Assembly: GCF_011045215.1 (NCBI RefSeq)
Contig: NZ_CP049201.1
Source of the DNA: Escherichia coli
GTDB lineage: Bacteria; Pseudomonadota; Gammaproteobacteria; Enterobacterales; Enterobacteriaceae
Length of the DNA: 64,000 nucleotides
Strand: one strand, 5' to 3'
Shown here: in pieces, positions 41,094-63,528 of the stretch
How positions within the stretch are numbered: the first letter of the stretch is position 1
Layout of the letters: each line of letters begins with the position of its first letter
Made by a program: the position numbers and the translations under genes
Notes under the pieces: generated by a model
Databases searched by the model: none
The model's input: only the letters and a program-made list of their open reading frames with translations
What the model was told of the DNA's origin: nothing

Positions 41094-42175
41094 TGCAACC
41101 TTTTGGCGTACTTGACCGCTATATCGGTAAAACTATTTTCACTACCATCATGATGACGCTGTTCATGCTGGTGTCGCTGTCGGGCATTATCAAGTTTGTC
41201 GATCAGCTGAAAAAAGCCGGGCAGGGGAGTTACGACGCGTTAGGCGCAGGAATGTATACCTTGCTGAGCGTGCCGAAAGATGTGCAAATCTTCTTCCCGA
41301 TGGCGGCTCTGCTTGGGGCGTTGCTTGGTCTTGGGATGCTGGCGCAGCGCAGCGAACTGGTGGTGATGCAGGCTTCTGGTTTTACCCGTATGCAGGTGGC
41401 GCTGTCGGTGATGAAAACCGCCATTCCGCTGGTCTTGCTGACGATGGCGATTGGCGAATGGGTCGCGCCGCAGGGCGAGCAGATGGCGCGTAACTACCGT
41501 GCGCAGGCGATGTACGGCGGCTCGTTGCTCTCTACCCAGCAAGGTTTATGGGCGAAAGATGGCAACAACTTCGTCTACATTGAGCGGGTTAAAGGTGACG
41601 AAGAGTTAGGTGGCATCAGTATTTATGCCTTTAACGAGAATCGTCGTCTGCAATCCGTACGCTATGCCGCTACCGCGAAGTTTGACCCGGAACATAAAGT
41701 CTGGCGTCTGTCGCAGGTTGATGAATCTGATCTGACCAATCCGAAACAGATCACCGGTTCGCAGACGGTGAGCGGCACCTGGAAAACCAACCTCACGCCG
41801 GACAAACTGGGCGTGGTGGCGCTGGACCCGGATGCACTCTCCATCAGTGGTTTGCACAACTATGTGAAGTATCTGAAGTCGAGCGGTCAGGATGCCGGAC
41901 GTTATCAGCTCAACATGTGGAGCAAAATCTTCCAGCCGCTATCTGTGGCGGTGATGATGCTGATGGCGCTGTCGTTCATCTTTGGCCCACTGCGTAGCGT
42001 ACCGATGGGCGTGCGTGTGGTCACCGGTATCAGTTTCGGTTTTGTCTTCTACGTACTGGACCAGATCTTCGGTCCGCTGACGTTGGTTTATGGTATCCCG
42101 CCGATCATCGGCGCACTGTTGCCAAGCGCCAGCTTCTTCTTAATCAGCCTGTGGCTGTTAATGAGAAAATCGTAA
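41093..42175 (+). CDS. lptG: LPS export ABC transporter permease LptG
   Basis: 360 aa from MQPFGVLDRYIGK; overlaps lptF stop. Confidence 0.9.
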   Translation: MQPFGVLDRYIGKTIFTTIMMTLFMLVSLSGIIKFVDQLKKAGQGSYDALGAGMYTLLSVPKDVQIFFPMAALLGALLGLGMLAQRSELVVMQASGFTRMQVALSVMKTAIPLVLLTMAIGEWVAPQGEQMARNYRAQAMYGGSLLSTQQGLWAKDGNNFVYIERVKGDEELGGISIYAFNENRRLQSVRYAATAKFDPEHKVWRLSQVDESDLTNPKQITGSQTVSGTWKTNLTPDKLGVVALDPDALSISGLHNYVKYLKSSGQDAGRYQLNMWSKIFQPLSVAVMMLMALSFIFGPLRSVPMGVRVVTGISFGFVFYVLDQIFGPLTLVYGIPPIIGALLPSASFFLISLWLLMRKS

Positions 42176-42190
42176 CCGAATGAACGAATA

Positions 42191-42220
42191 AAGGGAGCGA
42201 AAGCTCCCTTTATTATTGTT
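42191..42220 (+). terminator. Rho-independent terminator after lptG
   Basis: AAGGGAGC-GAAA-GCTCCCTT hairpin followed by TATTATTGTT. Confidence 0.65.
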
Positions 42221-42335
42221 AGCAAAGTGTGCTTCGTTCATTCCTGAAAAATAATTAAAATTCAATATATTGCTGTGGGGTGGGCATGATAAGACGCGCC
42301 AGCGTCGCATCAGGCAAAGACAAATCTCGCCTGAC

Positions 42336-43838
42336 TTACCTTCTTCTCCCCCCCAGCAAACTCCCCAACATCCCGCGTACAATCTGATTCGTCACCTGGC
42401 GAGCGGCGCTTTTGGCCATTGTTTGCACCACACCATCTTTCTTCCCGCCGCGTGGTCCGGTAGTGCCAAACAAAATATCCTTCAATCCACCAAGAATGCC
42501 GTCATCCACCGCTACCTCTTTCCCTTTCGCGGGGGGATTATTTTGCTGCTCGGTACTGGCCTGAAAGCCTTTTTGCAACATCTCATAGGCGGATTCCCGG
42601 TCCACCTCATCCTCATATTTGCCATACACCGGGGAGTGATTAATCAAGCCATTACGCTCATCTTCCGTCACCGGCCCCATCCGCGAACAAGGCGCAATCA
42701 CCATCGCCCGTTCCACCACAGAAGGACTTCCTTTTGCATCGAGAAACGAGATTAACGCCTCGCCGGTCCCCAGTTCCTGGATTGCCTTTTCGGTATCAAA
42801 TGCAGGGTTGGGGCGCATGGTTTGCGCCGCAGCTTTTACCGCTTTCTGATCTTTGGGCGTAAAAGCACGCAAAGCGTGTTGAACGCGATTACCGAGCTGC
42901 CCGAGCACATTATCCGGAATATCAGACGGGTTTTGCGAAACGAACCAGACGCCCACGCCTTTTGAGCGAATAAGCCTTATCACCTGCTCAATCTTATCCA
43001 GCAGTACCTGCGGTGCATCGTTAAACAGCAGATGTGCTTCGTCGAAGAAAAACACCAGTTTTGGCTTCTCGAGATCGCCCGCTTCCGGCAATTGTTCATA
43101 CAACTCTGAAATCATCCACAGCAGGCTGGCGGCGTACAGTTTCGGCATCTGATAAAGTTTCTCGGCGCTGAGGATATTGATAACGCCTTTACCGTTGGCA
43201 TCGGTGCGCATCCAGTCTTTGATATCCAGCATCGGCTCACCAAAAAAGTGTGTTGCGCCTTGCTGTTCCAGCGATAACAGCCCGCGCTGGATGGCACCAA
43301 CCGATGCGCTACTGATATTACCGTACTGATTCTGGAAAGATTTGGCGTTATCGCCGATGTACTGGGTAATCGCCCGCAAATCTTTAAAGTCGAACAGTAA
43401 CAGCCCCTGATCGTCAGCAATGCGGAAGATGATATTCAGCACGCCAGATTGCACATCGTTGAGATTCAACAGCCGCGCCAGCAACAGCGGCCCCAGATCC
43501 GAAACCGTCGCCCGCACCGGATGGCCTTTCTCGCCAAAGATATCCCACACCACCACCGGATTGGCATGCGGTTGCCAGTCATTGACGCCGATATTTTTAA
43601 GCCTTGTGAGCAGTTTTTCCGATGCCGTTCCTGCCTGCGCGATACCGGTCAGATCGCCTTTCACATCAGCCATAAACACCGGCACGCCGATTTCCGACAA
43701 TGACTCTGCCAGTTTTTGCAGCGTAACGGTTTTACCCGTCCCCGTTGCGCCAGTAATCAGCCCGTGACGGTTAGCCATTCCCGGCAGTAAAAACAGTTCT
43801 GTGTCCGGCGTGCGGGCAATTAACAGGGGTTCGCTCAT
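42336..43838 (-). CDS. yjgR: P-loop ATPase YjgR (DUF853)
   Basis: 500 aa from [12 protein letters not shown]..., Walker A GATGTGKT. Confidence 0.85.
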
Positions 43839-43967
43839 GAGATTTCCTCCAGTTTCCTGCCTGGAGTATAGGCAACGGCTGCGCACTCTTCACCGCCAAA
43901 TTCAGCAGATTGCGAGACGCCTTCCAAAGAGATTTAAGTGCCGGGCGACAGGCACCCGGCAAAGAGA

Positions 43968-44987
43968 TCAGAAGTCAGCTTTCAGAACCACGCGGTAACG
44001 CGCCTTACCGTCGCGCACATGCTGGATGGCGTCGTTAATTTTCGACATCGGGAACAGTTCGGTAGTCGGCGCAACCTTGCTGCGGGCGGCAAAGCGCATC
44101 AGCTTACGCAACTCATAAGGTGTACCGGTAGCAGAGCCAGAGACACTGCGATCGCCCGCAATCAGCGTAAAGGCCGGAACCGGCAACGGCGTGAGAACCG
44201 CACCGACTGTATGGAAATTACCGCCATAGGTCAGCGCCTCAAAATAAGGCTGCCAGTCGAGGCTGACGTTCACAGTATTGATAATGAGATCAAACTGCCC
44301 CGACAGGGCTTTCAGTGCCTGCGGATCGCGGCTATTCACCACTTTATCGGCACCCATCGCCAGTACTTCCTGCTCTTTCGCCGGATTAGAACTAAAGGCC
44401 GTCACCTCGCATCCCATTGCGTGCAGAAGTTTTATAGCGATATGCCCCAGCCCGCCAATACCAATTACCCCAACGCGGCTGGTAGCAGTGATATGGTGCA
44501 TCAACAGTGGTTTAAAGACCGTGATACCGCCGCACAACAGCGGCCCGGCGGACTCGATATCAATATTTTCTGGCAGTGGAATCACCCATTGCCAGTCCGC
44601 ACGCAACTTCTCGGCAAAGCCACCGCGATTCATAATCGTCGGCACCGCACCTTGCTCGCAGTTGATCTGATTACCGCTAATACAGGCGTCGCAATGCCCG
44701 CAGCTACGCGCCGTCCAGCCAATCCCGACACGCTGACCGACCTGCAAACCTTTATCCTGCGCGGCGCTCCCGAGCGCCACCACGCGACCAATCACCTCAT
44801 GCCCGGCAACCAGCGGATATTGCGAAAATCCCCATTCGTTATCGATCATCGACAGATCGGAATGGCAGATCCCGCAGTAATCCACCTGCACTTCAACATC
44901 TTGTGGCCTCAGCTCACCGGGATCGTACTCATAAACTTCCAGTTCGCCGCCCGCTTCTTTTGCGGCATAGCTTTTTATCATCGACAT
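43968..44987 (-). CDS. ahr: NADPH-dependent aldehyde reductase Ahr (YjgB), Zn-dependent MDR family
   Basis: 339 aa from [32 protein letters not shown] and CGxCxxC zinc motifs. Confidence 0.9.
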
Positions 44988-45182
44988 TTTTTGGTCCTTC
45001 TCTGGTGTTGTTTGGGAAGTGTAGAGCATGGCAGGGCGGGGTGCCTGGAGTGTGACAAAGGTTACACATCGCTGTATGCAATGCTGAAAATTTCAGCACT
45101 TAGCGAGGTGCGAGCAAGCTGGCGCTTGCATGGTGGCGTGCGACAGGTATAATCCACAACGTTTTCCGCATACCTCTTCAGT

Positions 45183-45267
45183 GCCGAAGTGGCGAAATCG
45201 GTAGACGCAGTTGATTCAAAATCAACCGTAGAAATACGTGCCGGTTCGAGTCCGGCCTTCGGCACCA
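45183..45267 (+). tRNA. leuX: tRNA-Leu (anticodon CAA)
   Basis: 85-nt sequence GCCGAAGTGGCGAAATCGGTAGACGCAGTTGATTCAAAATCAACC...GGTTCGAGTCCGGCCTTCGGCACCA; anticodon loop TTCAAAA; long variable arm; CCA end. Confidence 0.93.
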
Positions 45268-45456
45268 TAAAAAGCTTTTTTCAAGTCTACCAACGTCTAC
45301 TTTAGTCCATAAAAACAGTAAGTTAAGCAGAGTTTTGGCCTTTCTTAGTCTGTTCACGTCTACTTACTTCTATCCACATATACCAACGAATGATGGTATA
45401 ACTGGTGGTATCTTCGGTTCGATTGATTTTGATACCAACAGCGGAGGTATCAACTG

Positions 45457-46707
45457 ATGGCACTTACTGATATCAAAGTTAGGACTACCAAGCCCTCCGA
45501 CAAACCTTTCAAACTCACAGATGGGCAGGGTATGCACCTGCTGATCAACCCCAATGGTTCAAAATACTGGCGACTCCAATACCGTTTCGATGGCAAACAG
45601 AAAGTTTTAGCATTGGGTGTTTATCCAATGGTCTCTCTTGGTGAAGCTCGCAGGAAACGAGATGAGGCTAAAAAGTTGGTATCTGATGGTATCGACCCTT
45701 CCGAGAAGAAAAAGGCAGACAAGATCGAGCAGAGCGAAGCTCTTACTTTTGAATCTGTTGCCAGGGACTGGCATAAGGCTTGTAAAAGGAAATGGTCAGA
45801 TTCCCATAGCGAGAGAGTTCTAAAAAGCATGGAAGATGGTCTCTTTACTGCTCTTGGTAAAAGAAAAATATCCGAGCTTAATACCAGAGATCTTCTTGCC
45901 CCTATCAAGGCTGTTGAAGCTTCTGGGCGACTGGAAGTTGCTTCCCGCCTACAGCAAAGAACAACGGCAGTGATGCGATATGCTGTCCAGAACGGGCTGA
46001 TAGATTACAACCCTGCCCAGGAGATGGCAGGAGCTATTGCAGTAGCTAAAAGAGTCCACAGGCCAGCTTTGCCATTCGAACGATTCTCAGAACTTTTAGA
46101 ACGAATTGATAGTTTCAAGGGTAGAAAACTCACGAAGTTAGCCGTAAAGCTGACATTGCTCATTTTCATTCGTTCCAGTGAACTTAGGTTTGCTCGTTGG
46201 TCAGAGATAGATTTCGACAATGCCATGTGGACTATCCCTGGGGAACGTGAGCCATTGCCAGGGGTCAAACATTCTCATCGAGGCTCAAAAATGAAGACAC
46301 CACACCTCGTGCCGTTAAGTCGCCAGGCTATAGAACTCCTCAAAGCTATCAAAGAAATCAGCGGTGAATGTGAACTTGTATTCATTGGTGATCATGATTT
46401 TAGAAAGCCTATGAGTGAAAACACGGTAAACAAGGCTTTAAGGTCTATGGGCTACGACACTACGGTTGAAGTATGTGGACATGGTTTTCGTGCGATGGCA
46501 TGTAGTGCGTTGATCGAATCGGGAAAATGGTCAAGGGATGCTGTTGAACGGCAGATGAGCCACCAAGAGCGAAACTCCGTTCGTGCTGCCTACATTCATA
46601 AAGCAGAACACCTTGATGAAAGAAGGCTTATGTTGCAGTGGTGGGCTGATTACCTTAATGCCTTGAAAGATAGGTTTATCAGTCCCTTTGATTTTACAAC
46701 AAAGTAG
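45457..46707 (+). CDS. intB: P4-family tyrosine integrase (IntB-like) with N-terminal DUF4102-type domain
   Basis: 416 aa, MALTDIKVRTTKPSDKPFKLTDGQGMHLLINPNGSKYWRLQYRFDGKQK N-terminus typical of tRNA-associated island integrases; C-terminal HGFRAMA...R...Y catalytic region; lies 190 bp from the leuX 3' end. Confidence 0.9.
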   Translation: MALTDIKVRTTKPSDKPFKLTDGQGMHLLINPNGSKYWRLQYRFDGKQKVLALGVYPMVSLGEARRKRDEAKKLVSDGIDPSEKKKADKIEQSEALTFESVARDWHKACKRKWSDSHSERVLKSMEDGLFTALGKRKISELNTRDLLAPIKAVEASGRLEVASRLQQRTTAVMRYAVQNGLIDYNPAQEMAGAIAVAKRVHRPALPFERFSELLERIDSFKGRKLTKLAVKLTLLIFIRSSELRFARWSEIDFDNAMWTIPGEREPLPGVKHSHRGSKMKTPHLVPLSRQAIELLKAIKEISGECELVFIGDHDFRKPMSENTVNKALRSMGYDTTVEVCGHGFRAMACSALIESGKWSRDAVERQMSHQERNSVRAAYIHKAEHLDERRLMLQWWADYLNALKDRFISPFDFTTK

Positions 46708-46794
46708 CTTGATCAACGATTAACTATCCACTGGCATAGCCGTGTGATATGATTACAATGGCTATATTTTTAATTTAAATTTAATAGGTAAAAA

Positions 46795-47934
46795 ATGTCC
46801 ACAATTAACCCCGCAATTTTTTCTTTTTTCTCTGGTTCAGGATTTCTTGATCTTGGATTTGAAAAAAATGGTTATGAAGTGGTTTTCGTGAATGAATACC
46901 ATGCTCCGTTTATGGATGCATATAAACATTCGAGGAAAAAATTAAATATAGCACCACCTCGTTTTGGGTATGCAGAGTGCAGTATTGAAGATGTAGAACA
47001 TGAAAAAATTAAGTCTTCTATGCTTCAACTTAAAAATGAGGGGCGATTGACTGGATTTATTGGTGGTCCACCATGCCCGGATTTCTCTGTAGCGGGTAAA
47101 AATAAAGGTCGAGATGGTGAAAACGGTCGGCTTTCACAAAGCTATATTGATATCATTCTTGAAATGAAACCAGATTTCTTTCTTTTTGAGAATGTTAAAG
47201 GTCTATACCGTACCAGTAAACATAGGGAATTTTTTGACCATTTAAAAACTCAATTAGAATCGGTTGGTTATTGTTTGCATGAAAAACTAATAAATTCTAT
47301 TGAATATGGTGCTCCTCAAGATAGGCAACGAATCATATTGATTGGTTTCCTTGATGAAAAATATGCAAGCCAATTCAATTGGGGGCAAAGAGTCTACCCT
47401 GAAAGAACTGCATTTGAATATAAATGGCCGACGACAAACCAATTTTCAGAAAACACTTCTGTTATAAAACCAAAGGGTATCCCAGAAGAGTTAACAGTAG
47501 AGCATTGGTTCAAGAAAAACCAGGTTGATAATCATCCAAATGCAAAGCATGTATTCGCGGCAAGAGCAGGGCTTGCGAGGTTTTTGACTGTCGAAGAAGG
47601 GGATGATAGTAAAAAATCCTATAAAAGGTTACATAGATGGAGATTTTCACCAACTGCTGCTTACGGTAATAATGAGGTACATTTACATCCTTATAAACCA
47701 AGAAGAATTACTGTTGCCGAAGCATTAGCAATTCAGTCTTTACCAAAAGAATTTGAATTACCTGCTTATATGACTCTGTCTAATATGTTTAAAACTGTCG
47801 GTAACGGTGTACCCTACTTAGCAGCGGCCGGTATTGCCAAATCTATTATAGAGCATTTAGGAATCGAATATGAGAGTAACTGCGGCGAACTTAGCACAGG
47901 CGATTGCCAATCTACCAAGAAACACGCAGTTTAA
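46795..47934 (+). CDS. DNA (cytosine-5)-methyltransferase
   Basis: 379 aa with C5-MTase motifs: I FSGSGFLDLGFE (FxGxG), IV GGPPCPDFS (Pro-Cys), VI FLFENV, VIII QDRQR, X GNGVP near C-terminus; AT-rich. Confidence 0.85.
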   Translation: MSTINPAIFSFFSGSGFLDLGFEKNGYEVVFVNEYHAPFMDAYKHSRKKLNIAPPRFGYAECSIEDVEHEKIKSSMLQLKNEGRLTGFIGGPPCPDFSVAGKNKGRDGENGRLSQSYIDIILEMKPDFFLFENVKGLYRTSKHREFFDHLKTQLESVGYCLHEKLINSIEYGAPQDRQRIILIGFLDEKYASQFNWGQRVYPERTAFEYKWPTTNQFSENTSVIKPKGIPEELTVEHWFKKNQVDNHPNAKHVFAARAGLARFLTVEEGDDSKKSYKRLHRWRFSPTAAYGNNEVHLHPYKPRRITVAEALAIQSLPKEFELPAYMTLSNMFKTVGNGVPYLAAAGIAKSIIEHLGIEYESNCGELSTGDCQSTKKHAV

Positions 47935-48946
47935 TTATGTAAATGTGCGAAATTCGGGAAGAATCATTGTAACGAATGTTCAACTTCCCGAAGGCCCAAT
48001 AGAATTCAAAAGATTCGATCCAAAAAAGGGTGAGACACTGCATAGTTCTAAATCGGAAAGCATCTCCACACAAATGTTGTGGAGATTGGCTAATGCTTTA
48101 CAGGAAGATGTCCCTGTCAATTTGGATCGTATTTTTGGTGCAAGCTATAATACACGTGCTGTTCTCGAAAGCCTTTTGGCCCATACTCCTGAGTTTTATT
48201 GGTGTAAGCTTGATCGCCTTGAGGTAATGAACACTCAGAAAAATATTAAAAAAGGTCACAAGCACCTTATTTATAGACCAAATGACCCACATGAAAATGG
48301 TGTAGCAATAGAACATACTACTAATGTTATAATTTCTGAAATGAATTTAGATGTTGTCCATCAATCAGTTGATATAGAGACAATCTTACCTACTAAAGGA
48401 ATGACGATTGAGGAAAAAAGACGTCATGCACAAATTCAAATCTCATTAGTAAAAATAGGTCATTACTTAGGTTATCGGACATGGGTTGCAGCAAATGATC
48501 GTGGCCTCCAATATAATGGAAAATCTATAGCCCAAATGGATGGGGTCATAGATAATTTAAGAAATGAACAAGTGCTTCAATCATATGATAAAGCTATCAA
48601 AGAAGCTCGGCTTATAGATTGTATTTGGTTTCGAAATGGAAAATTAATGCCTGCAGTTATGGAGATTGAGCATAGCACTGGTATTAAAAGTGGTTTGGTA
48701 AGGATGAAACAATTTTATGATTATGCACCACAGTTAAAAAATATACGTTGGACCGTTGTGGCACCTGACGAATATAGAAATAAAGTTATAGAGTTTTCTA
48801 ATATGCCACAATTTAAAGAATTAGATACTCGATTCTTCCCCTATTCTGCTGTAGAGGAACTCTATTCATTATGTGCAAGAAGGAATCCTCAAGGAATTAC
48901 AGACGATTTCCTTGATGCATTCATGGAAAAGTGTGTGACACATTAA
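47870..48946 (+). CDS. Putative nuclease-like partner of the methyltransferase (candidate restriction endonuclease); function inferred
   Basis: 358-aa ORF; ATG with AGGA SD overlaps MTase 3' end by 65 nt (translational coupling); C-terminal D...E-x-E-x(6)-K-like stretch (LIDCIWF...VMEIEHSTGIK) compatible with a PD-(D/E)xK core. Confidence 0.45.
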   Translation: MRVTAANLAQAIANLPRNTQFNYVNVRNSGRIIVTNVQLPEGPIEFKRFDPKKGETLHSSKSESISTQMLWRLANALQEDVPVNLDRIFGASYNTRAVLESLLAHTPEFYWCKLDRLEVMNTQKNIKKGHKHLIYRPNDPHENGVAIEHTTNVIISEMNLDVVHQSVDIETILPTKGMTIEEKRRHAQIQISLVKIGHYLGYRTWVAANDRGLQYNGKSIAQMDGVIDNLRNEQVLQSYDKAIKEARLIDCIWFRNGKLMPAVMEIEHSTGIKSGLVRMKQFYDYAPQLKNIRWTVVAPDEYRNKVIEFSNMPQFKELDTRFFPYSAVEELYSLCARRNPQGITDDFLDAFMEKCVTH

Positions 48947-49083
48947 TCCTTCATAATCAGTTACCGGAGCAAATTACTTTTCTCCGGTTGGTTAACTGAA
49001 TATTAGTATTAAAATCTGATGGTGTTTATTTTATAAATATCAAATGTAATGGTATTTTCAATAATTATATCTAAGAGCGGTTT

Positions 49084-49893
49084 ATGAGAGTAATTAGCCC
49101 CTTTGAGGAATTGAAGAACTGGTTTAATCTTGATAACTATGAACCGATAAAATCGTTTACAATCAAGGAACTACATAGAGAGATTGTCTTTAGAGAAGCG
49201 ATTTTCGACAGTGTAAATTTTGGATGGGAAGATGATAATCAAAATTTAAGGTCTATCCTTGAAGGTAATCCTATTTTAAGCAGACAAGATAATAATCATG
49301 GTCATTTTGGCAAGGGCCAAAGACATGTTGCGCAGGTTAGCTTTGGTGATATAAAAAAATTAGAGAATAAGTTGATAATGTTTAGCATGGATTTTTTTGA
49401 AGAAAATGGTGATTTCAAAAAAGAGTTGAAAAAGAAACCAATAACAAAAACTATGAGAGACTTTTTTCTCAACAAAAATAGCAGCAAGATGTATGTATCA
49501 TTTGATTTGGGGTTATCTAGTGATGAGGAAATTATATCAGCCCTGCAAACTATGCTTCCAACTCTAAGGAAAGAATACGAGATTGACCCAGTAAAAACAG
49601 AAAAGATAGGGCTCGCAAAAATAAGAAAACTTGTCGATTACAACATTATTCCTATGATGGACTTACTAATTTGGTCAAAATTCAAAAAAGCAAAAATCTC
49701 AAATATGGTCTTGTCTCGTGTGTTGTATCCTGATTTCACTCACGAGATTAGAGGCGAAGATCACATTAAAGATACAGACAGGCCCATTGCTGAGAAGGCT
49801 TTAAATGGAGAGATAACTCGTAGTTTGGAGTACTTTCTTAGTAAAAACAGTCATCTCATCAACATACCGATTTCAGAACTCGGATCTCTCTAG
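49084..49893 (+). CDS. Hypothetical protein (269 aa), no recognisable motif
   Basis: Long AT-rich ORF, same strand as R-M-like pair. Confidence 0.55.
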   Translation: MRVISPFEELKNWFNLDNYEPIKSFTIKELHREIVFREAIFDSVNFGWEDDNQNLRSILEGNPILSRQDNNHGHFGKGQRHVAQVSFGDIKKLENKLIMFSMDFFEENGDFKKELKKKPITKTMRDFFLNKNSSKMYVSFDLGLSSDEEIISALQTMLPTLRKEYEIDPVKTEKIGLAKIRKLVDYNIIPMMDLLIWSKFKKAKISNMVLSRVLYPDFTHEIRGEDHIKDTDRPIAEKALNGEITRSLEYFLSKNSHLINIPISELGSL

Positions 49894-50058
49894 CTATAAA
49901 TCATCATGCAATTGTCAAGGGGATGGTGAAAATATTTTTCTTCCCCTAAATTTCTCTCCATTCTTTCCTCATCTAAATTTTCAGTTATCAGCACTCCCTT
50001 CATAGATACAAATCTGTGTGGCTAATATCTCCTTAACGGAAGCGGAGGAGACAGCCAA

Positions 50059-50265
50059 ATGAATACAACCAATCAAAGCTTAATTCGTTTACCAGAAGTC
50101 TTGAAACGAACTGGTTTCGGCAAGGCCTGGATCTATCGTCTGATCAGTGAAGGTCGGTTTCCGGCACCCGTTAAGATCGGAATTCGTGCCGTTGCTTTTG
50201 TCGAGAGTGAAGTTGACGAGTGGATTCTATCAGTTATCGAAACAAACAGAATTAAAGTTGCTTAA
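50059..50265 (+). CDS. alpA: AlpA-family transcriptional regulator / excisionase-like DNA-binding protein
   Basis: 68 aa; LIRLPEVLKRTGFGKAWIYRLISEGRFPAPVKIG...VAFVESEVDEWI matches the AlpA/MerR-like HTH of prophage CP4-57-type regulators. Confidence 0.85.
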   Translation: MNTTNQSLIRLPEVLKRTGFGKAWIYRLISEGRFPAPVKIGIRAVAFVESEVDEWILSVIETNRIKVA

Positions 50266-50286
50266 TTAAACCTAGGAGAGATTTTT

Positions 50287-50601
50287 ATGAATATCGAAGA
50301 ATTTATGAATGAAGAAAACCATATGTGCAATTTAGGCGAGGATCTTTTTTGCAAGATCTTCGAACCCGGAGCGATTTATGATTTGCCGAATAGCGATTTT
50401 AATAAAGAAATCATTTACTGGCTCAGTCAGTATCTTGTCGGAAATTTGAGACAACCTTTAGACGCGATCTCTGAGCTTGATATTTTCGAGCAGTTTTATG
50501 TTTACGAGACATGGTTCTCGCTAATTAAATGCCCAGATGAAATTAGAAATTTATCGAAACGGATAATTCGATATCAGATTGGGTTAAAAACCATTCTTTG
50601 A
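50287..50601 (+). CDS. Hypothetical protein (104 aa)
   Basis: ORF immediately downstream of alpA, 21-nt gap. Confidence 0.5.
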   Translation: MNIEEFMNEENHMCNLGEDLFCKIFEPGAIYDLPNSDFNKEIIYWLSQYLVGNLRQPLDAISELDIFEQFYVYETWFSLIKCPDEIRNLSKRIIRYQIGLKTIL

Positions 50602-50732
50602 AAGAACCTATATTTAGTACTATTTTGTAAATTGCATTGTTGAAATGATAGTGCTATTTGCTTTTTGATTTACAAAACATCTTTAACTTCTTTTAAAATA
50701 ATGGGTTAACTATTTTAAGTGAAAAGAAAGGA

Positions 50733-50762
50733 TTATAATATCCCTCTAGAGGGATATTATAA
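50733..50762. promoter_or_regulatory. 30-bp perfect palindrome upstream of the recombinase operon (candidate operator or recombination site)
   Basis: TTATAATATCCCTCTAGAGGGATATTATAA is perfectly self-complementary; lies about 130 bp upstream of the first recombinase gene in an AT-rich leader. Confidence 0.5.
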
Positions 50763-50893
50763 ATTTTCGGCCGGTATGCGTCATTGTAAAAGGGAATAAT
50801 ATTAAATTCAGGAAAATATATTTGTAAATTGCTTATGTTATATGCTTTATTTATTTTCACTGACAATTAAATGTAAATAGAGGCGATATTACT

Positions 50894-52156
50894 TTGAAAT
50901 ATAAAATAAAAAGATTGAAGAATAAAGATGGTATCAGAAGTTGCATTATTATTAATGAGAGCAACGGATTACCCTTGGTTTATTCTAACTTATATATGAG
51001 TGTTATTTCACGAACAAATAGCTATTCATTTTCAACAATGGAAGCAATAGCAAATGCTTTGCTTTTATTTGAAAGATATAATGCTTACATGAATGTGGAT
51101 GTTTTTGATATGGTAAATCCTGACATCGAAAAACTTGTCTCGAACAAAGGATATTTATTCGGGTTAATGAATGCCCTTTCTTACAGAAACGACTTAGAGA
51201 ATGTTACAAGCATTCTTAAAGAACAACATGTCTCTAAAAGAACCCTTTATTTCAAGATAATGACAATTGAAAATTACGTCAAATGGTTTTTTGATAACAT
51301 TGCTATCAATAATATTGATTCTTCTCGTTATGAAGCAATCAGTCGAGCATTTGATTTTATAAAGCCAAGAATAGAGAACGGAAAGAATTACAATATTGAA
51401 AGCGAAAGCAAATCATTGACAAATGAGCAAGTTACAACTTTGACTGATATGGTAAGTGTTAAATCTAAGATTAATCCATTTTCGGAGCATGTAAGGTTTC
51501 GAAATAATCTAATAATTAAAATTTTATTAGAGACAGGTATTAGGGGAGGGGAACTACTTAATATTAAGTTGGTTGATTTTGACTATGTCCACAAAAGTCT
51601 ATGCATAGTAAGAAGGCCAGATGATCAAAACGAACCACGATTAAGGCAACCATTGGTTAAAACTTTAGAAAGAAAAATACCATTGAGTATAGAATTGACT
51701 GAGTTAATACAGAATTATATTAGTGATTTCAGAGGTAAGCAGTGTCATGCAGGGGAGCATGACTATCTGCTTGTTACTCATAGCAGTAAAGGTCAATTAG
51801 GTCATGCATTAACTATTTCAGGTTATCAGAAAATTTTCGAACAAATTAGGAAAAATAGTAATGTTTTGAGCGATATTGTGGGGCATTCGCTAAGACATAC
51901 TTGGAATGTGAAATTCTCAGAAATGATGCTCATGAATTCGAACTCTCAGGAATATATTACTTATGAGAAAGTAAGAAATTATCTTATGGGGTGGAAAAAG
52001 AATAGTACAACCTCAGATATCTATAACCAAGCATTTATAGCACAAGAAAGCCGAAAAATAATGGCTGTTATTAATCCACTCAAAAACATAGTAGAGGACA
52101 AATCCAATGTTTCAAACTCTAAGAAAGCTACAAGAAAGTCAATATTCGGTTTTTGA
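50894..52156 (+). CDS. Tyrosine recombinase 1 of a three-recombinase operon
   Basis: 420-aa ORF (TTG at 50894; first ATG at 50996); conserved ETGIRGGELLNIKLVDF (box I Arg), HSLRHTW (HxxR) and ...SDIYNQ (Tyr) catalytic elements. Confidence 0.75.
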   Translation: MKYKIKRLKNKDGIRSCIIINESNGLPLVYSNLYMSVISRTNSYSFSTMEAIANALLLFERYNAYMNVDVFDMVNPDIEKLVSNKGYLFGLMNALSYRNDLENVTSILKEQHVSKRTLYFKIMTIENYVKWFFDNIAINNIDSSRYEAISRAFDFIKPRIENGKNYNIESESKSLTNEQVTTLTDMVSVKSKINPFSEHVRFRNNLIIKILLETGIRGGELLNIKLVDFDYVHKSLCIVRRPDDQNEPRLRQPLVKTLERKIPLSIELTELIQNYISDFRGKQCHAGEHDYLLVTHSSKGQLGHALTISGYQKIFEQIRKNSNVLSDIVGHSLRHTWNVKFSEMMLMNSNSQEYITYEKVRNYLMGWKKNSTTSDIYNQAFIAQESRKIMAVINPLKNIVEDKSNVSNSKKATRKSIFGF

Positions 52157-53432
52157 AACCAAGGATGGTAATTTCAAAGTGAACTTTTCTTATTCCAAGT
52201 GGAAGATAAGTGAAAGTATAACATTGAACATTGATTCTTTAAGAGTGGTCATCAGTGCATATATACCTATCAAAACCACTTTGGCATATTTCGCTATAAA
52301 TTATAGTGCCAGTTATACTAAGAAAATGTTTTATGCAGTAAAGCATTACATTAAGGCCTGTAATACGAATGATAGCTTGTTTTCTAAAGATTGCATAAAG
52401 TATTACTATAAAGTTGTGAGCTCATTAGATTACACACATGCAGAGACAGTCAAATATTTTTTTATGAAGATGAGTGGTCTTTACCCATCTTTGTTTTCGG
52501 CAGAAGCAATCATATTTTTAGAAAATATTAAAGTTAAAAAAACAAATGCAAACAAGTCTATAAAGACACATGATTATAAAAAAGGTCCCTTTAGTGACTC
52601 GCAATTAAAGGTAATTATAGATTCTGTAGCGATAGCTTATAAGGAAGAAAAGGTAAGTCTGTCAAACTATCTGCTAACCTTCCTTGTTGCATATTCCGGG
52701 CGGCGACCTATGCAAATATCTCAACTTGAAGCTGGTGATCTCTTTGCTTTTAATGGAGAGTACTTTCTCAATATCCCAAGAATTAAACAACGAAATGGAT
52801 ATAGAAAAGAGTTTAGAAAATTACAAATTCCAGAAGAGCTTTTTAGCCAATTGACATATCTCGTTGAAGCTGTGAATTCGCTGGTCAGTGACACATTAAA
52901 AATCGATTTAAGTGAAAAACAAAAGAGAAAACTACCAATTTTTATAAACACATATCCATTCAAAAAAGGATGTGTTGAGCTAAACATGATTGAAAGTGGT
53001 GGATTAAAACTTAACCCCTATGCCATAACACTAAAAATAAGGAACACTATAAATCGTTCAATAAATGAATATCAAGCCTATCTGGGGTGTATAAATTCGC
53101 GCAGATTTAGATATTCATTAGGCACTAAGGTTGCACAATTGGGTTATAGTCCTTCACTGATAGCAAATGTTTTGGACCATTCTTCAATCAATTCTGTTAT
53201 GAGTTATATAGAAAATACAGCGGAAAATGGCAAGAGAATTAATGAAGCTGTAAATGAACTAATGAAGCCACTGGCTAACAAATTTATTGAGGGAAAAGAG
53301 CTTCAGAAAGAGTTAGATTCTTTGAAGCATTTGATAGAAGAATACTGCGGTGGATATAAAACTAACTCTTTTGATAATACAGCAATATCGTTAGTAACTA
53401 ATTCTATCGACGATATGATCAATAGCATTTAA
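52107..53432 (+). CDS. Tyrosine recombinase 2 (divergent catalytic motifs)
   Basis: 441 aa; SD AGAGGA before ATG; AYSGRRPMQISQLEAGDL (box I), RRFRYSLG...LDHSSINSVMSYIE (box II-like with Tyr); overlaps upstream gene by 50 nt. Confidence 0.7.
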   Translation: MFQTLRKLQESQYSVFETKDGNFKVNFSYSKWKISESITLNIDSLRVVISAYIPIKTTLAYFAINYSASYTKKMFYAVKHYIKACNTNDSLFSKDCIKYYYKVVSSLDYTHAETVKYFFMKMSGLYPSLFSAEAIIFLENIKVKKTNANKSIKTHDYKKGPFSDSQLKVIIDSVAIAYKEEKVSLSNYLLTFLVAYSGRRPMQISQLEAGDLFAFNGEYFLNIPRIKQRNGYRKEFRKLQIPEELFSQLTYLVEAVNSLVSDTLKIDLSEKQKRKLPIFINTYPFKKGCVELNMIESGGLKLNPYAITLKIRNTINRSINEYQAYLGCINSRRFRYSLGTKVAQLGYSPSLIANVLDHSSINSVMSYIENTAENGKRINEAVNELMKPLANKFIEGKELQKELDSLKHLIEEYCGGYKTNSFDNTAISLVTNSIDDMINSI

Positions 53433-53447
53433 AAGAAGGATAAAGTG

Positions 53448-55052
53448 ATGAAAGAAATCCATGATAAAATGATTAATAACTTCATTATCGCTAATAAGGC
53501 CCATGCGAAAAATTTTGGAAATTTTGAGTGGGATAATTCAAGTTGGGGAGGCGGAATTACATTTTTTAGCGGAATCAAGGTTAGAATGGGGAACAAGAAT
53601 AAGAAATTAATGAATTATAACATTGCAGAGTTCGCAAAAGCATATGTATGGCATGAGTGCTTTCATGATTTATCTGTAGCTTTCAGAGTGCTGAGATTAT
53701 TTAGGATATTAGAAATTGCCATAGGTAAAACAAATAAAGAAGTTAAGATTTCAAGTATAGATCATAAAGTATTAGATGAAGTTATGACTATTGTTCAAGA
53801 AAATTTTGCAATATCCACTTCTTATAAAATATATTTAGATCTTAGGGTATTATGTTCTTTTATGTCTAAGAACGAAATGTTGCCAGAATCCATTACACGA
53901 TGGTCATATCCATTTAAGGCATATGATGCTTACACAAATAGCACAATGGATTCGATGGGAAATTTATCCAATCAGAAAAAACTTCCTGATGAAAAGGCTA
54001 TAGATTTTATTGGTAAAATATTTAGCTCTAATCCAGTTAATGAAAGGGATATATTTACATCTTCTATTTTTGCATTGCTCTTATGTGCTCCATCTCGAAT
54101 TAGTGAAATTATGCTTTTAGAAGAGGACTGTGAAGTTATAGTTGAAGATAGTAATGGCATATCAAGATATGGTTTGCGATTTCTTTCTCTGAAGGGCTTT
54201 GGATACAATACCAAATGGATTCCAGACTGTATGGTTTCTGTAGCTTCAAAGGCTATCATGCGATTGAAAAAACTTACAAGGAATGCAAGGGTTGTTTCTC
54301 GGTTAATAAAAGCAGGGGAAATTAATTTATACGAGTCATTAAACAAAAGTGCGTTTGATTGTTTAACAATTGAAGATCTCCACAAACTTGGCTTTGTTAT
54401 AAATCAATTAAATATCTCCCAAGAAAATCTAAAATTCTTGGCTAAGATAAAACATGGTACAGTCAGTGTAAAAGCATTTTGGATTTATATAGAGCGAAAG
54501 AATGTTAATTCTGAAAATATTAATGCTAATTTATGCTCCATAAATCATAATTTATTGGACTCTATCAAGGGTGCTGATATTTTTACAACAATTAAGGCAT
54601 CTTCAAAGTATTTTAGAGCGGATTTTCGCACCGATAATATGAATAACATATTTCATAGGAATATACATTTTAACTGTGATGGTTCTGTTTTAATTTTCCG
54701 CAGCCATCAAATTAGACATTTACTTAATACTATAGCTCAACGAAGCGTATTGTCAGAGATACAAATTGCCCAATGGTCTGGGAGAAGGAGTGTTAAGCAG
54801 AATTCAGTATATGATCATATGTCTCACAACGAGTTATCAGAACTATCAAGGAAACTATTGAACGGAAACACCTACGAAGAAACAAAAATTTCAGCATCTT
54901 CATTTAATGAACAATCGATTATTATGAATTTGATTAAAGATAAATTTGAAAAACTAGAATTAAAAATCCAAAATTCAGATCCAAGAAAAAGAAAATATAT
55001 TCTGGAAAAAATTAAAGATTTAAGATTGGAAATTGAATACATATTAATGTGA
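53448..55052 (+). CDS. Tyrosine recombinase 3
   Basis: About 534 aa (GTG-ATG at 53445/53448); CAPSRISEIMLLEEDC (box I), HQIRHLLNTIAQ (HxxRH), ...SVYDHMSHNE (Tyr). Confidence 0.7.
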   Translation: MKEIHDKMINNFIIANKAHAKNFGNFEWDNSSWGGGITFFSGIKVRMGNKNKKLMNYNIAEFAKAYVWHECFHDLSVAFRVLRLFRILEIAIGKTNKEVKISSIDHKVLDEVMTIVQENFAISTSYKIYLDLRVLCSFMSKNEMLPESITRWSYPFKAYDAYTNSTMDSMGNLSNQKKLPDEKAIDFIGKIFSSNPVNERDIFTSSIFALLLCAPSRISEIMLLEEDCEVIVEDSNGISRYGLRFLSLKGFGYNTKWIPDCMVSVASKAIMRLKKLTRNARVVSRLIKAGEINLYESLNKSAFDCLTIEDLHKLGFVINQLNISQENLKFLAKIKHGTVSVKAFWIYIERKNVNSENINANLCSINHNLLDSIKGADIFTTIKASSKYFRADFRTDNMNNIFHRNIHFNCDGSVLIFRSHQIRHLLNTIAQRSVLSEIQIAQWSGRRSVKQNSVYDHMSHNELSELSRKLLNGNTYEETKISASSFNEQSIIMNLIKDKFEKLELKIQNSDPRKRKYILEKIKDLRLEIEYILM

Positions 55053-55061
55053 GGAGATTAT

Positions 55062-55460
55062 ATGGCAAGAAAGTTTTATGATAAAGAAATAAAAGCTATT
55101 GTTAAACTTATTGAAACCTGGAGTAAGCCTGATTTCACTTGGGATTCTTTATGCGTGGCTTGCAAAAAAATTTTAGGTAAAGTACCTACACGGCAAGCAT
55201 TAAGCCAGCATAGTGAGATTGTCGTTGCGTATAGGACCAGAAAAAGATCTGGTATGGTTAAACGTCAAAATACGAAGTTACCCGGTAGCCTGAGCCTTGC
55301 GGCGAAAAGAATAGAACGACTTGAAAATGATAATTCGGCACTAAAATATGAAAATAATAATTTACTGCTTATGATTCAAAGAATGCACGAAAATGCTTAC
55401 AGGCATAATATATTGGCTTCTATTCTTGAAGAAGAATTTCCACAGAGAGCAAGAAAATAA
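55062..55460 (+). CDS. Small basic protein, fourth gene of the recombinase operon (possible DNA-binding accessory factor)
   Basis: 132 aa, starts 9 nt after recombinase 3; Lys/Arg-rich with predicted coiled-coil C-terminus. Confidence 0.55.
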   Translation: MARKFYDKEIKAIVKLIETWSKPDFTWDSLCVACKKILGKVPTRQALSQHSEIVVAYRTRKRSGMVKRQNTKLPGSLSLAAKRIERLENDNSALKYENNNLLLMIQRMHENAYRHNILASILEEEFPQRARK

Positions 55461-55545
55461 TATTTTGATAGGTTTTATCTATTGACAGGTGATGTTAATA
55501 TGGTATTTGTAAATATAGTCAGGAAGACAAAACTAACTTGCAAGG

Positions 55546-55983
55546 ATGCAATTTATGGACAAACAACACAATTTTCCAGTGGAAACACTGGAAGAGCAGC
55601 TTATTATTATCGTTGATAAATATATCTCAAAACGGTACCAGCCGGGCGATAAAAGTTTCTCATACCAGCTATACCTGCTTTTTGTTGGCTATCACTTAAA
55701 GTATTTCTACCCCAAAAAACTTTATACTCGCTCTAATCGCAACATAGACAACATTATGACAATGTTTAGTTCTGTATACAAATGTCTTACAAGTACTTTG
55801 TTACAGCGATTAAATAATAAGGAAGCTGTTATCAGGGAGCTAAACTCTCTCGTTAACTATATTGATAACAATCAAGAACGAGCAGAAGAAATCTTTATAG
55901 CTATCAAAACTCAATATGAGATAAAAGCAATAGAGAAAGAACTAACCCATGAAGTCGTTAGAGTAAAAAATGTTAGATTATAA
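55546..55983 (+). CDS. Hypothetical protein (145 aa)
   Basis: ORF ending at an intrinsic terminator. Confidence 0.5.
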   Translation: MQFMDKQHNFPVETLEEQLIIIVDKYISKRYQPGDKSFSYQLYLLFVGYHLKYFYPKKLYTRSNRNIDNIMTMFSSVYKCLTSTLLQRLNNKEAVIRELNSLVNYIDNNQERAEEIFIAIKTQYEIKAIEKELTHEVVRVKNVRL

Positions 55984-56010
55984 AAGCTCCCGAAAGGGAG
56001 CTTCATTTTA
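55982..56010. terminator. Bidirectional intrinsic terminator
   Basis: AGCTCCC-GAAA-GGGAGCT hairpin with flanking A/T runs between convergent genes. Confidence 0.7.
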
Positions 56011-56023
56011 CTAATTTTCTTTA

Positions 56024-56287
56024 TTAATAACTTCCTACTTGCCAGCCATCATCTGATTTTATTAATTTAACTGTTCCAGCTTGCTTTGTTCCGCTCATAT
56101 CCATAATTATATTGCACTTATAGCTTTTATCAGATTCTTTTGTGCAATCTACTTTTTTTACTGAAGTCAGATAGCTTCCAGTCCATTTTCGCATAGCTTT
56201 AAAAATATCATCTTGGGAAGGCTCACTACTACATGCAGTAAGAAGAAATACGGAAATAATAACAGCAAGGACCGAAGATATTTTCAT
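56024..56287 (-). CDS. Small lipoprotein
   Basis: 87 aa; signal peptide with lipobox LLTAC. Confidence 0.6.
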   Translation of the reverse strand: MKISSVLAVIISVFLLTACSSEPSQDDIFKAMRKWTGSYLTSVKKVDCTKESDKSYKCNIIMDMSGTKQAGTVKLIKSDDGWQVGSY

Positions 56288-56311
56288 TAGACTTAATCCT
56301 GATTAAGTATG

Positions 56312-56698
56312 TTACTGAAAAATGCCAGATTTTGTATTATTATTATCAGTAGAGAATGTCCATTTGCTGACAATTTCGCCTTTAAAATCTATTTCAAGAG
56401 TTTTGGACTGAGTCTGTGAACCACCAGTTAGTAGCCCAACTACAGGAATGAAAGTCGAGGCATTGAACTGATTGTTATACATAAAATATCTCCATTGCTC
56501 GTTGCCATCATCAAGAGTCGTTCTTGTATCTGGTTCACCTAACTTAGCGAGTAGCTCGTTCTTAGTAGTCTTGTTTTTAATGATCTTTGACTGAAGACTT
56601 TGTGCAGTTTCATTTTCAATTTGTTGGTTCCCGGATGTTGAGCAGCCAGAAATTAAAAATATTGCAATGAAAAAGGCGGTAACAATAGATTTATTCAT
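56312..56698 (-). CDS. Lipoprotein
   Basis: 128 aa; signal peptide with lipobox LISGC. Confidence 0.6.
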   Translation of the reverse strand: MNKSIVTAFFIAIFLISGCSTSGNQQIENETAQSLQSKIIKNKTTKNELLAKLGEPDTRTTLDDGNEQWRYFMYNNQFNASTFIPVVGLLTGGSQTQSKTLEIDFKGEIVSKWTFSTDNNNTKSGIFQ

Positions 56699-56727
56699 TC
56701 TATCTTCCTTATTATATTTGGTCAGGG

Positions 56728-57006
56728 TTAACTTTTATGTGTGAAAACGGCTCTGTGGGCAAATTTCTTGCGTAAATAAAATCTTAAAGAAATTGCTGAG
56801 GCAAAATAGATAACGACAGTTAATATAAAACTTTGACTGATAGCGAATATGAAGAAAGCAATTACTAACAGCACAATTCCTATGAGTAAAGCTAACCAGG
56901 CCGAAGGTTCACCATAATTTATTGTTGCGTGACAGCCGATACAGACACGAACTCCGAACGGACTCTCTTTGAAGCAGAACGGGCACTTAATGGTCTCTTT
57001 ACTCAT
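56728..57006 (-). CDS. Small membrane protein with N-terminal zinc-ribbon
   Basis: 92 aa; CPFC...CIGCH then one hydrophobic helix. Confidence 0.5.
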   Translation of the reverse strand: MSKETIKCPFCFKESPFGVRVCIGCHATINYGEPSAWLALLIGIVLLVIAFFIFAISQSFILTVVIYFASAISLRFYLRKKFAHRAVFTHKS

Positions 57007-63519: not shown

Positions 63520-63528
63520 GAAATCCCC

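What the first reader, a model, noticed from the sequence alone, without database searches (positions are those of the whole stretch)
43839..43967. yjgR and ahr are adjacent; the idn (L-idonate) gene cluster expected here in K-12 is absent
From memory of the K-12 map, idnR-idnT-idnO-idnD-idnK lie between yjgR and ahr. Here only a 129-bp spacer separates them, indicating strain-level presence/absence variation next to the leuX hotspot.
Basis: established knowledge. Interest (0 to 1): 0.3.

Follow-up and report, generated by a model that had tools for sequence, protein, structure and literature searches.

The report
E. coli strain lacking the idonate operon
This E. coli strain carries the common version of the yjgR–ahr region that lacks the five-gene L-idonate sugar-acid operon found there in K-12, which is an ordinary and already known difference between strains.

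Summary
yjgR (42336-43838, minus strand) and ahr (43968-44987, minus strand) are separated by a 129-bp spacer (43839-43967). In K-12 MG1655 the same interval holds idnR-idnT-idnO-idnD and idnK, a 5076-bp block.

The idn-less state is the majority. 3212 of 5426 complete E. coli genomes have contiguous yjgR-ahr, 2038 carry the idn block (always chromosomal, one place each), and 3371 have no idn match anywhere.

It is not a fresh deletion of a K-12-like locus. The spacer holds 78 bp that the idn-bearing version lacks: part of a terminator-like hairpin after ahr, plus a conserved stretch upstream of yjgR. The same idn-less junction occurs in E. fergusonii, E. albertii, Citrobacter koseri, C. werkmanii and C. 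portucalensis. The same idn-bearing junction occurs in other Citrobacter lineages and in Salmonella enterica, and idn gene divergence tracks the flanking genes. Both versions therefore look old.

Within E. coli, yjgR and ahr are mosaic and differ by up to 7%, which suggests the versions are swapped by homologous recombination. Which version came first is unresolved. The idn block has no repeats, IS elements or integrase and lies on the far side of ahr from leuX, so it is not part of the leuX island. Variable idn carriage is already reported. Interest is low.

The parts
42336..43838 (-). yjgR (HerA-like / DUF853 ATPase), intact, 500 aa
   Evidence: ORF list; 98.6% protein identity to K-12 YjgR; the exact protein is WP_164476005.1 / QIF15103.1 of E. 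coli.
43839..43967 (.). 129-bp yjgR-ahr spacer; this is the idn-less version of the interval
   Evidence: Sequence. Contiguous arrangement in 3212 of 5426 complete E. coli genomes. Homologous spacers in E. fergusonii, E. albertii, C. koseri, C. werkmanii and C. portucalensis.
43839..43877 (-). 39 bp directly upstream of the yjgR ATG, shared by both versions (GTTGCCTATACTCCAGGCAGGAAACTGGAGGAAATCTC); includes the GGAGG ribosome-binding site and a 6-bp stem
   Evidence: Aligns 97% with K-12 L001 13540-13578. Conserved in all Escherichia and Citrobacter loci and largely in E. cloacae and Klebsiella. The ribosome-binding role is inferred from the sequence.
43878..43955 (-). 78 bp found only in the idn-less version: the 3' part of the ahr terminator-like hairpin plus a conserved stretch upstream of yjgR (TTTGGAAGGCGTCTCGCAATCTGCTGAATTTGGCGGTGAAGAGTGCGCAGC)
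   Evidence: No counterpart in K-12. Conserved among idn-less Escherichia and Citrobacter. A promoter role is inferred only; the consensus scan found no sigma-70 match.
43939..43961 (-). Hairpin just after the ahr stop codon (UGCCGGGUG-CCUGU-CGCCCGGCA) followed by CUUAAAUCUCUUU; putative intrinsic terminator of ahr
   Evidence: Terminator-like hit in the scan. Nine-pair stem in the minimum-free-energy fold. The stem is kept in five taxa with an invariant CCGGG/CCCGG core and two pairs changed on both sides.
43956..43967 (.). 12-mer CCGGCAAAGAGA. It abuts the ahr stop here; in K-12 it lies between the yjgR leader and idnR. Under the two-event reading this places the idn block between 43967 and 43968.
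   Evidence: Exact match to L001 13580-13591, directly next to the left breakpoint. It is less conserved in idn-bearing Citrobacter and Salmonella.
43968..44987 (-). ahr (NADPH-dependent aldehyde reductase), intact, 339 aa
   Evidence: 99.4% protein identity to K-12 Ahr; annotated as ahr in matching genomes.
45183..45267 (+). leuX, tRNA-Leu(CAA), the island integration site
   Evidence: ARAGORN; Rfam tRNA, 59.4 bits.
45457..46707 (+). P4-type tyrosine integrase that opens the low-GC (35%) leuX island; context only, not part of the idn difference
   Evidence: Pfam Arm-DNA-bind_3, Phage_int_M and Phage_integrase; GC content.

Best explanation
The window carries the idn-less version of a two-version locus.

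Idn-less version (this window). The ahr stop codon is followed at once by a hairpin that looks like ahr's own terminator. Next come about 50 nt of conserved sequence upstream of yjgR, then a 39-nt leader, then yjgR.

Idn-bearing version (K-12, BL21, CFT073, IAI39 and others). A 5.1-kb block (idnK facing ahr, then idnD-idnO-idnT-idnR) starts right after the ahr stop codon and ends 14-26 nt past the idnR stop. The 78 bp holding the rest of the hairpin and the conserved stretch are missing.

Age. Each version has the same junctions in more than one genus, and idn genes diverge in step with the flanking core genes. I infer that both versions predate the present E. coli population. The state of a given strain would then be set by homologous recombination in yjgR and ahr that swaps one version for the other, not by a new deletion or a new insertion.

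Consequences (inferred from the established K-12 GntII pathway; none was tested here). The strain lacks IdnD, IdnO, IdnT, IdnK and IdnR, so it should not catabolise L-idonate through 5-ketogluconate. ahr should be terminated by its own hairpin. yjgR should be expressed from its own upstream region rather than sitting 66-78 nt behind idnR.

Shown versus inferred. Shown: the anatomy, the junctions, the frequencies and the cross-species distribution. Inferred: spread by recombination, and the metabolic and regulatory consequences. Not resolved: which version is ancestral.
For: Anatomy and breakpoints.

Frequencies: 3212 contiguous genomes, 2038 idn-bearing genomes, and only 2055 genomes with any idn match.

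Idn-less junction in other species: E. fergusonii, E. albertii and C. werkmanii, C. koseri and C. portucalensis. The spacers are homologous and fall into an Escherichia type and a Citrobacter type.

Idn-bearing junction in other species: Citrobacter sp. FP75, Citrobacter loci L101-L106, C. freundii and Salmonella enterica (species confirmed). All show the same break at GTTGCCTATACTC.

Co-divergence: idn genes are 77-83% identical between E. coli and Citrobacter or Salmonella, against 80-88% for the flanking genes, and the relative order of similarities is the same.

Recombination within E. coli: yjgR and ahr differ by up to 7.4% but do not cluster by idn state. Fixed differences between the two classes are confined to the last 20 nt of ahr. 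pepA, lptF and lptG are 99-99.8% identical to K-12.

Literature: pan-genome studies already list idn genes as variable in E. coli (PMC8545132, PMC4216125, PMC10269509).
Against: The clustering test within E. coli used only 11 strains.

Keeping both versions since before the Escherichia-Citrobacter split is demanding. Old transfer between genera followed by divergence would look similar.

The direction of change is unresolved. The conserved stretch upstream of yjgR resembles the E. cloacae region only weakly (21-25 of 56 matches, 28-606 of 5000 shuffles do as well). Klebsiella carries GCCGGAC near GTTGCC, which resembles the idn-bearing junction instead.

About 3% of E. coli genomes fall in neither class and were not examined.

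No expression or growth data were available.
Confidence: 0.6

Rival explanations
1. Recent deletion: the lineage of this strain had a K-12-like idn locus and lost the 5-kb block in a single deletion.
For: idn is present in diverse E. coli backgrounds (K-12, BL21, CFT073, IAI39) and in Salmonella and Citrobacter at the same site, so idn could be ancestral in E. coli.
Against: The spacer contains 78 bp (43878-43955) that no idn-bearing genome examined has, so it cannot be produced by deleting DNA from that version. The same junction is found in E. fergusonii, E. albertii and three Citrobacter species. The one apparent intermediate, strain MLI104K2, is homopolymer assembly garbage.
Confidence: 0.04
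2. Ancient deletion: the common ancestor of Escherichia, Salmonella and Citrobacter carried idn together with the full hairpin and the 78 bp. One old precise deletion made the idn-less version, and a separate 78-bp loss made today's idn-bearing version. The window would then be a descendant of that old deletion.
For: idn sits at this site in three genera, and its divergence tracks the flanking genes. The 12-mer TCTCTTTGCCGG lies on the yjgR side of the idn block in E. coli, as expected if the hairpin once followed idnR. Klebsiella has GCCGGAC close to GTTGCC.
Against: The postulated ancestral form was not seen in any of about 14 idn-bearing loci. Enterobacter and Klebsiella have no idn at this site, and Kluyvera has the cassette elsewhere. 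The idn block has 3-8 points lower GC than its flanks in every taxon examined.
Confidence: 0.3
3. Ancient insertion: ahr-hairpin-yjgR is the ancestral arrangement, which the window still shows. The idn cassette was inserted once, right after the ahr stop codon, with loss of 78 bp. This happened in or before the common ancestor of the three genera, and the uninterrupted version persisted alongside it.
For: Both sampled sister species of E. coli, E. fergusonii and E. albertii, are idn-less. Enterobacter and Klebsiella have no idn at this locus. The cassette occurs with the same gene order at unrelated loci in Kluyvera and in a metagenome contig. GC is lower than in the flanks. The idn-less spacer has a conserved hairpin and conserved upstream blocks that align weakly with E. 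cloacae.
Against: There are no repeats, IS elements or integrase at the cassette ends. The outgroup comparison is statistically weak and ambiguous. It requires the uninterrupted version to survive in two genera alongside the insertion.
Confidence: 0.4
4. The idn block is cargo of the leuX integration hotspot: a K-12-specific island brought in, or removed, by the integrase-driven traffic at tRNA-Leu.
For: The block lies within 1.3 kb of leuX, and each strain has a different island after leuX.
Against: The idn block is on the opposite side of ahr from leuX and on the 5' side of the tRNA gene. It has no integrase and no flanking direct or inverted repeats. It is 99% or more identical in 1969 genomes whatever island follows leuX. 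The tRNA and the ahr-leuX spacer are 99.6% identical between the window and K-12.
Confidence: 0.02

Closest known systems
GntII / idn L-idonate catabolic cluster of E. coli K-12 (idnK, idnD-idnO-idnT-idnR; Bausch et al. 1998, cited from my own knowledge)
   Same: It occupies exactly this chromosomal interval between yjgR and ahr in K-12. It is the block whose absence defines the finding.
   Different: None of the five genes is present in the window. The window instead has 78-90 bp that K-12 lacks.
yjgR-ahr junction of E. coli O157:H7 and of 3212 complete E. coli genomes
   Same: Same contiguous yjgR-spacer-ahr-leuX arrangement. Strain Z1723 aligns at 97.8% over the whole 2.8 kb and strain EF7-18-51 at 98.5%.
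   Different: Only ordinary allelic differences; yjgR differs by 2-5% among idn-less strains.
Strain-specific segments found by K-12 versus O157:H7 genome comparison (K-islands; Perna et al. 2001, cited from my own knowledge)
   Same: A block present in K-12 and absent from O157:H7 within an otherwise collinear backbone.
   Different: The block is not K-12-specific. It is in 38% of complete E. coli genomes and at the same site in Salmonella and Citrobacter. It lacks mobile-element features.
leuX-associated genomic islands (KpLE2 in K-12 and pathogenicity islands at leuX; named from my own knowledge)
   Same: It is the immediate neighbour. The window has its own integrase-led, 35% GC island after leuX.
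   Different: The idn difference lies outside the island boundary, on the far side of ahr, and varies independently of the island content.

Membership tests
idn-less version of the yjgR-ahr interval (as in O157:H7, E. fergusonii, E. albertii) | Intact yjgR and ahr orthologues, same strand, separated by about 130 bp | tested here: met
   Spacer of 129 bp; proteins 98.6% and 99.4% identical to K-12.
idn-less version of the yjgR-ahr interval (as in O157:H7, E. fergusonii, E. albertii) | Hairpin directly after the ahr stop codon, followed by the conserved TTTGGAA...AATTT...GGTGAAGAGTGC block | tested here: met
idn-less version of the yjgR-ahr interval (as in O157:H7, E. fergusonii, E. albertii) | No idn orthologues | tested here: met
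   tblastn of the five Idn proteins against the 64-kb window finds only 21-33% paralogue-level hits. The rest of this genome could not be searched, but 3371 of 5426 E. coli genomes have no idn match at all.
GntII (idn) L-idonate pathway carrier | Presence of idnD, idnO, idnT, idnK and idnR | tested here: not met
   Absent from the locus and from the window.
GntII (idn) L-idonate pathway carrier | Growth on L-idonate or 5-ketogluconate | not testable with these tools
   Needs a growth experiment.
tRNA-integrated genomic island (leuX island) as the carrier of idn | Block lies 3' of the tRNA, starts with an integrase, and is bracketed by a repeat of the tRNA 3' end | tested here: not met
   In K-12 idn lies beyond ahr on the 5' side of leuX. 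No flanking repeats. No integrase inside the block.
IS- or transposon-mediated insertion or deletion | IS element, terminal inverted repeats or target-site duplication at the breakpoints | tested here: not met
   No repeat pair joins the two ends of the K-12 block. No IS sequence in the window spacer.
Recombination-shuffled old presence/absence polymorphism | Each version has identical junctions in several species | tested here: met
Recombination-shuffled old presence/absence polymorphism | Flanking genes do not cluster by version; association decays close to the junction | tested here: met
   Eleven E. coli strains; fixed differences only in ahr positions 1003-1017. The sample is small.
Recombination-shuffled old presence/absence polymorphism | Cargo genes diverge in parallel with the flanks (no recent transfer between genera) | tested here: met
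   Pairwise identity tables.
Recombination-shuffled old presence/absence polymorphism | Known direction of the founding event | tested here: inconclusive
   Outgroup comparisons are weak and contradictory.

The most novel reading that the evidence does not exclude
The presence or absence of idn between ahr and yjgR may be a polymorphism that spans genera. Both versions, each with its own junction, have persisted in Escherichia and in Citrobacter since about the time the genera split, and idn genes have diverged along with the flanks. That would suggest long-term balancing or niche-dependent selection on L-idonate/5-ketogluconate use. The unusually diverse, mosaic yjgR and ahr genes (up to 7% within E. 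coli, against 0.2-1% for lptF, lptG and pepA nearby) would be its footprint. A side effect would be that yjgR expression is wired differently in the two versions.
Probability: 0.3. Interest if true: 0.4.

Novelty: already known. Interest (0 to 1): 0.1.

Why it matters
It matters little on its own. The result says this strain should be unable to use L-idonate through the GntII route, and it documents a routine accessory-operon difference already visible in pan-genome studies. Two points have modest value. K-12 is the minority type at this locus. And the absence is an old alternative version with its own terminator-like hairpin and its own sequence upstream of yjgR, not a scar of recent loss. 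If the two versions really have coexisted across genera, the locus would be a compact case for studying how metabolic presence/absence polymorphisms are maintained. It might also explain the high diversity of yjgR and ahr.

Tried and rejected
1. Strain MLI104K2 looked like an evolutionary intermediate. Its 928-bp spacer contained decayed idnR and idnT fragments, and part of it matched the window spacer. Reading the sequence showed long G, C and A homopolymer runs, so this is an assembly artefact. I discarded it as evidence.

I filled the gaps with exact-protein look-ups instead.

3. I tried to fix the direction of change with outgroups. E. cloacae shares spaced blocks (TGGA-N8-CGCAA-N6-GAATTTAC) with the idn-less upstream region, but the match is weak (21-25 of 56). 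Klebsiella shows GCCGGAC, which fits the idn-bearing junction better. The result is inconclusive.

4. A search for direct or inverted repeats at the ends of the K-12 idn block found nothing relevant.

5. An Rfam scan of 42000-46000 found only the tRNA and a sub-threshold naRNA4 hit outside the spacer. The sigma-70 consensus scan found no promoter in the spacer.

6. The fold of the whole spacer is not more stable than shuffled sequence (z = -0.99). Only the local hairpin is notable.

8. A possible remnant of the idnT 5' end in the spacer (GGAAGGCGTCTCGC versus GGCAGGCGTCGCGC) rested on the MLI104K2 bridge and was dropped with it.

Full report
**Observation**

The window has yjgR at 42336-43838 and ahr at 43968-44987, both on the minus strand. 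The proteins are 98.6% and 99.4% identical to K-12 YjgR and Ahr. The YjgR sequence is an exact match to an E. coli protein, WP_164476005.1. tRNA-Leu(CAA), which is leuX, lies at 45183-45267 and is followed by a P4-type integrase.

Homology between the window and K-12 runs up to 43877 and resumes at 43968, the ahr stop codon. K-12 has 5076 bp in between. No idn orthologue occurs anywhere in the 64 kb.

**Frequency in E. coli**

| State, among 5426 complete genomes | Genomes |
|---|---|
| yjgR-spacer-ahr in one contiguous place | 3212 |
| idn block at 80% coverage or more (all chromosomal, one place each, 1969 at 99% identity or more) | 2038 |
| Any idn match | 2055 |

It follows that 3371 genomes lack idn altogether. 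About 3% of genomes fit neither class and were not examined.

The idn-less junction is therefore the majority state. It includes O157:H7. K-12, BL21, CFT073 and IAI39 carry idn.

Published pan-genome work already treats idn as accessory. The genes are in 83% of pks-positive and about 31% of pks-negative genomes (PMC8545132). They are enriched in HUS-associated STEC (PMC4216125). They also turn up in a k-mer association study (PMC10269509).

**Anatomy of the two versions**

This is not a clean indel.

The idn-less spacer, read in the sense of ahr and yjgR, has four parts:
- the ahr stop codon;
- a hairpin, TCTCTTTGCCGGGTGCCTGTCGCCCGGCA followed by CTTAAATCTCTTT, which scores as terminator-like;
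- about 50 nt, TTTGGAAGGCGTCTCGCAATCTGCTGAATTTGGCGGTGAAGAGTGCGCAGC;
- a 39-nt leader beginning GTTGCCTATACTCC that includes the ribosome-binding site.

The idn-bearing version keeps the leader and the 12-mer TCTCTTTGCCGG directly before it. It lacks the 78 bp in between. It has the idn block between the ahr stop codon and that 12-mer. A K-12-like locus therefore cannot be turned into the window's spacer by deletion alone.

The ends of the K-12 block carry no direct or inverted repeats, no IS element and no integrase. The block lies on the far side of ahr from leuX, so it is not part of the tRNA-linked island. Its GC content is 47%, against 54-56% for the flanks. A gap of 3-8 points is seen in every taxon examined.

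**A false lead**

Strain MLI104K2 seemed to hold a decayed idn remnant that bridged the two versions. Its spacer is made of long homopolymer runs. This is an assembly artefact and I discarded it.

**Other species**

| Arrangement | Taxa |
|---|---|
| Idn-less junction, with a homologous hairpin and upstream block | E. fergusonii; E. albertii and Citrobacter werkmanii; C. koseri; C. portucalensis |
| Idn-bearing junction, broken at the same nucleotide before GTTGCCTATACTC | Citrobacter sp. FP75; six further Citrobacter loci; C. freundii |
| Idn-bearing junction, but yjgR itself deleted | Salmonella enterica (species confirmed by exact protein look-up) |
| A dihydroxyacetone-kinase-like gene between ahr and yjgR | Enterobacter |
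| yjgR next to unrelated genes, with no ahr | Klebsiella |
| Same idn gene order at other loci | Kluyvera and a metagenome contig |

The idn-less spacers group into an Escherichia type and a Citrobacter type. The hairpin stem is kept in five taxa, with an invariant CCGGG/CCCGG core and two pairs changed on both sides.

**Age**

idn genes are 77-83% identical between E. coli and Citrobacter or Salmonella, and 81-86% among Citrobacter and Salmonella. The flanks (pepA, lptF, lptG, yjgR, ahr) follow the same ordering at 80-91%. The cassette has therefore diverged together with its neighbours, and nothing suggests a recent transfer between these genera.

Sister species in the C. freundii group differ in state. 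C. freundii and FP75 carry idn; C. werkmanii and C. portucalensis do not. Each version keeps its own junction and its genus-specific sequence. Both versions therefore look old.

**Within E. coli**

yjgR and ahr are unusually diverse, up to 7.4% and 6.5% at the nucleotide level. idn genes differ by at most 1.6%. pepA, lptF and lptG are 99-99.8% identical between the window and K-12.

Alleles of yjgR and ahr do not cluster by idn state. For example, an idn-less strain is 1.7% from K-12 in yjgR, while two idn-bearing strains are 6% apart. The only fixed differences between the two classes lie in the last 20 nt of ahr. This mosaic pattern is what repeated homologous exchange across the interval would leave. 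It rests on only 11 strains.

**Direction of the founding event**

This is unresolved.

In favour of an ancestral uninterrupted locus:
- both sampled sister species of E. coli are idn-less;
- Enterobacter and Klebsiella lack idn at this site;
- the cassette occurs elsewhere in other genera;
- its GC content is lower than that of the flanks;
- the idn-less upstream stretch is conserved.

In favour of an old deletion:
- idn sits at this site in three genera and has co-diverged with the flanks;
- the 12-mer lies on the yjgR side of the block.

Comparisons of the sequence upstream of yjgR with E. cloacae and Klebsiella are weak and point in opposite directions. I put ancient insertion at about 0.4, ancient deletion at about 0.3, and a recent deletion in this lineage at about 0.04. 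These three are alternatives for the founding event alone. The 0.6 given for the best explanation is my confidence in the main account, which is compatible with either ancient alternative.

**Consequences**

These are inferred from the established GntII pathway and were not tested. The strain should not catabolise L-idonate. ahr should terminate at its own hairpin. yjgR should be driven from its own upstream region rather than lying 66-78 nt behind idnR with no terminator in between.

**Verdict**

The finding is an ordinary, already known accessory-operon polymorphism. K-12 is the minority type, and the difference has no mechanistic link to the leuX island. The only mildly unexpected point is that both versions, each with a fixed junction, recur across genera.

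Noticed in passing
window 58886-61458 (minus strand): A reverse transcriptase (Pfam RVT_1, 58886-60049) lies next to a PRTase-CE plus wHTH protein (60238-61458) inside the leuX island. The pair looks like a retron-type anti-phage system. The non-coding RNA was not searched for.
   Followed up: partly
window 50894-55052 (plus strand): Three consecutive, overlapping ORFs. The first two have tyrosine-recombinase domains and the third has no Pfam match. The layout resembles a recombinase-in-trio mobile element inside the leuX island.
   Followed up: partly
window 46795-48946 (plus strand): A C-5 cytosine DNA methylase is followed by an overlapping 358-aa ORF with no Pfam match. This is possibly a restriction-modification pair right after the island integrase.
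   Followed up: partly
window 45268-64000: The island after leuX has 35% GC, against about 50% for the backbone. It also encodes DUF6387, a MobA/VirD2 relaxase (57260-58405), an ankyrin-repeat protein and an AAA_21/DUF3696 fragment at the window edge.
   Followed up: partly
window 42336-44987; loci L001, L002, L003, L005, L006, L087-L091: yjgR and ahr are far more diverse within E. coli (up to 7.4% and 6.5% at the nucleotide level, in a mosaic pattern) than the adjacent lptF, lptG and pepA (0.2-1%) or the idn genes (1.6% or less). The cause is not established. Candidates are proximity to the leuX/fim hotspot, introgression, or selection linked to the idn polymorphism.
   Followed up: partly
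L004 2580-3330 (E. coli MLI104K2, NZ_CP116925.1): The yjgR-ahr spacer of this RefSeq 'complete' genome is about 750 bp of G, C and A homopolymer runs annotated as a hypothetical protein and a LacI pseudogene. This is an assembly artefact that could mislead pan-genome analyses.
   Followed up: yes
L097 9340-9545 (Salmonella enterica): Salmonella enterica has idn next to ahr but lacks yjgR altogether. idnR is followed by a remnant of the yjgR leader, REP-like sequence, and then lptG.
   Followed up: partly
L094 and L095 (Escherichia sp. TW14182-type YjgR): In these cryptic-clade Escherichia contigs no ahr gene is called upstream of yjgR. An integrase or a large AAA/PLD protein lies nearby instead, which suggests a further rearranged state of the locus.
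   Followed up: no
L001 13579-13605 versus L005 and L090: K-12 has a 12-bp deletion (CATTACACATAT) between idnR and yjgR relative to CFT073 and IAI39. BL21 has the longer 77-nt idnR-yjgR spacing of CFT073 and IAI39 by its annotation, though its sequence there was not inspected. The deletion probably explains why most genomes align to the K-12 block only from base 14-16.
   Followed up: partly
window 22000-45300: The best match in the collection of complete RefSeq E. coli genomes is only 98.9% over 23 kb. The exact YjgR protein, however, is on record from a 5.41-Mb E. coli contig. The source genome therefore seems to be missing from that collection.
   Followed up: partly
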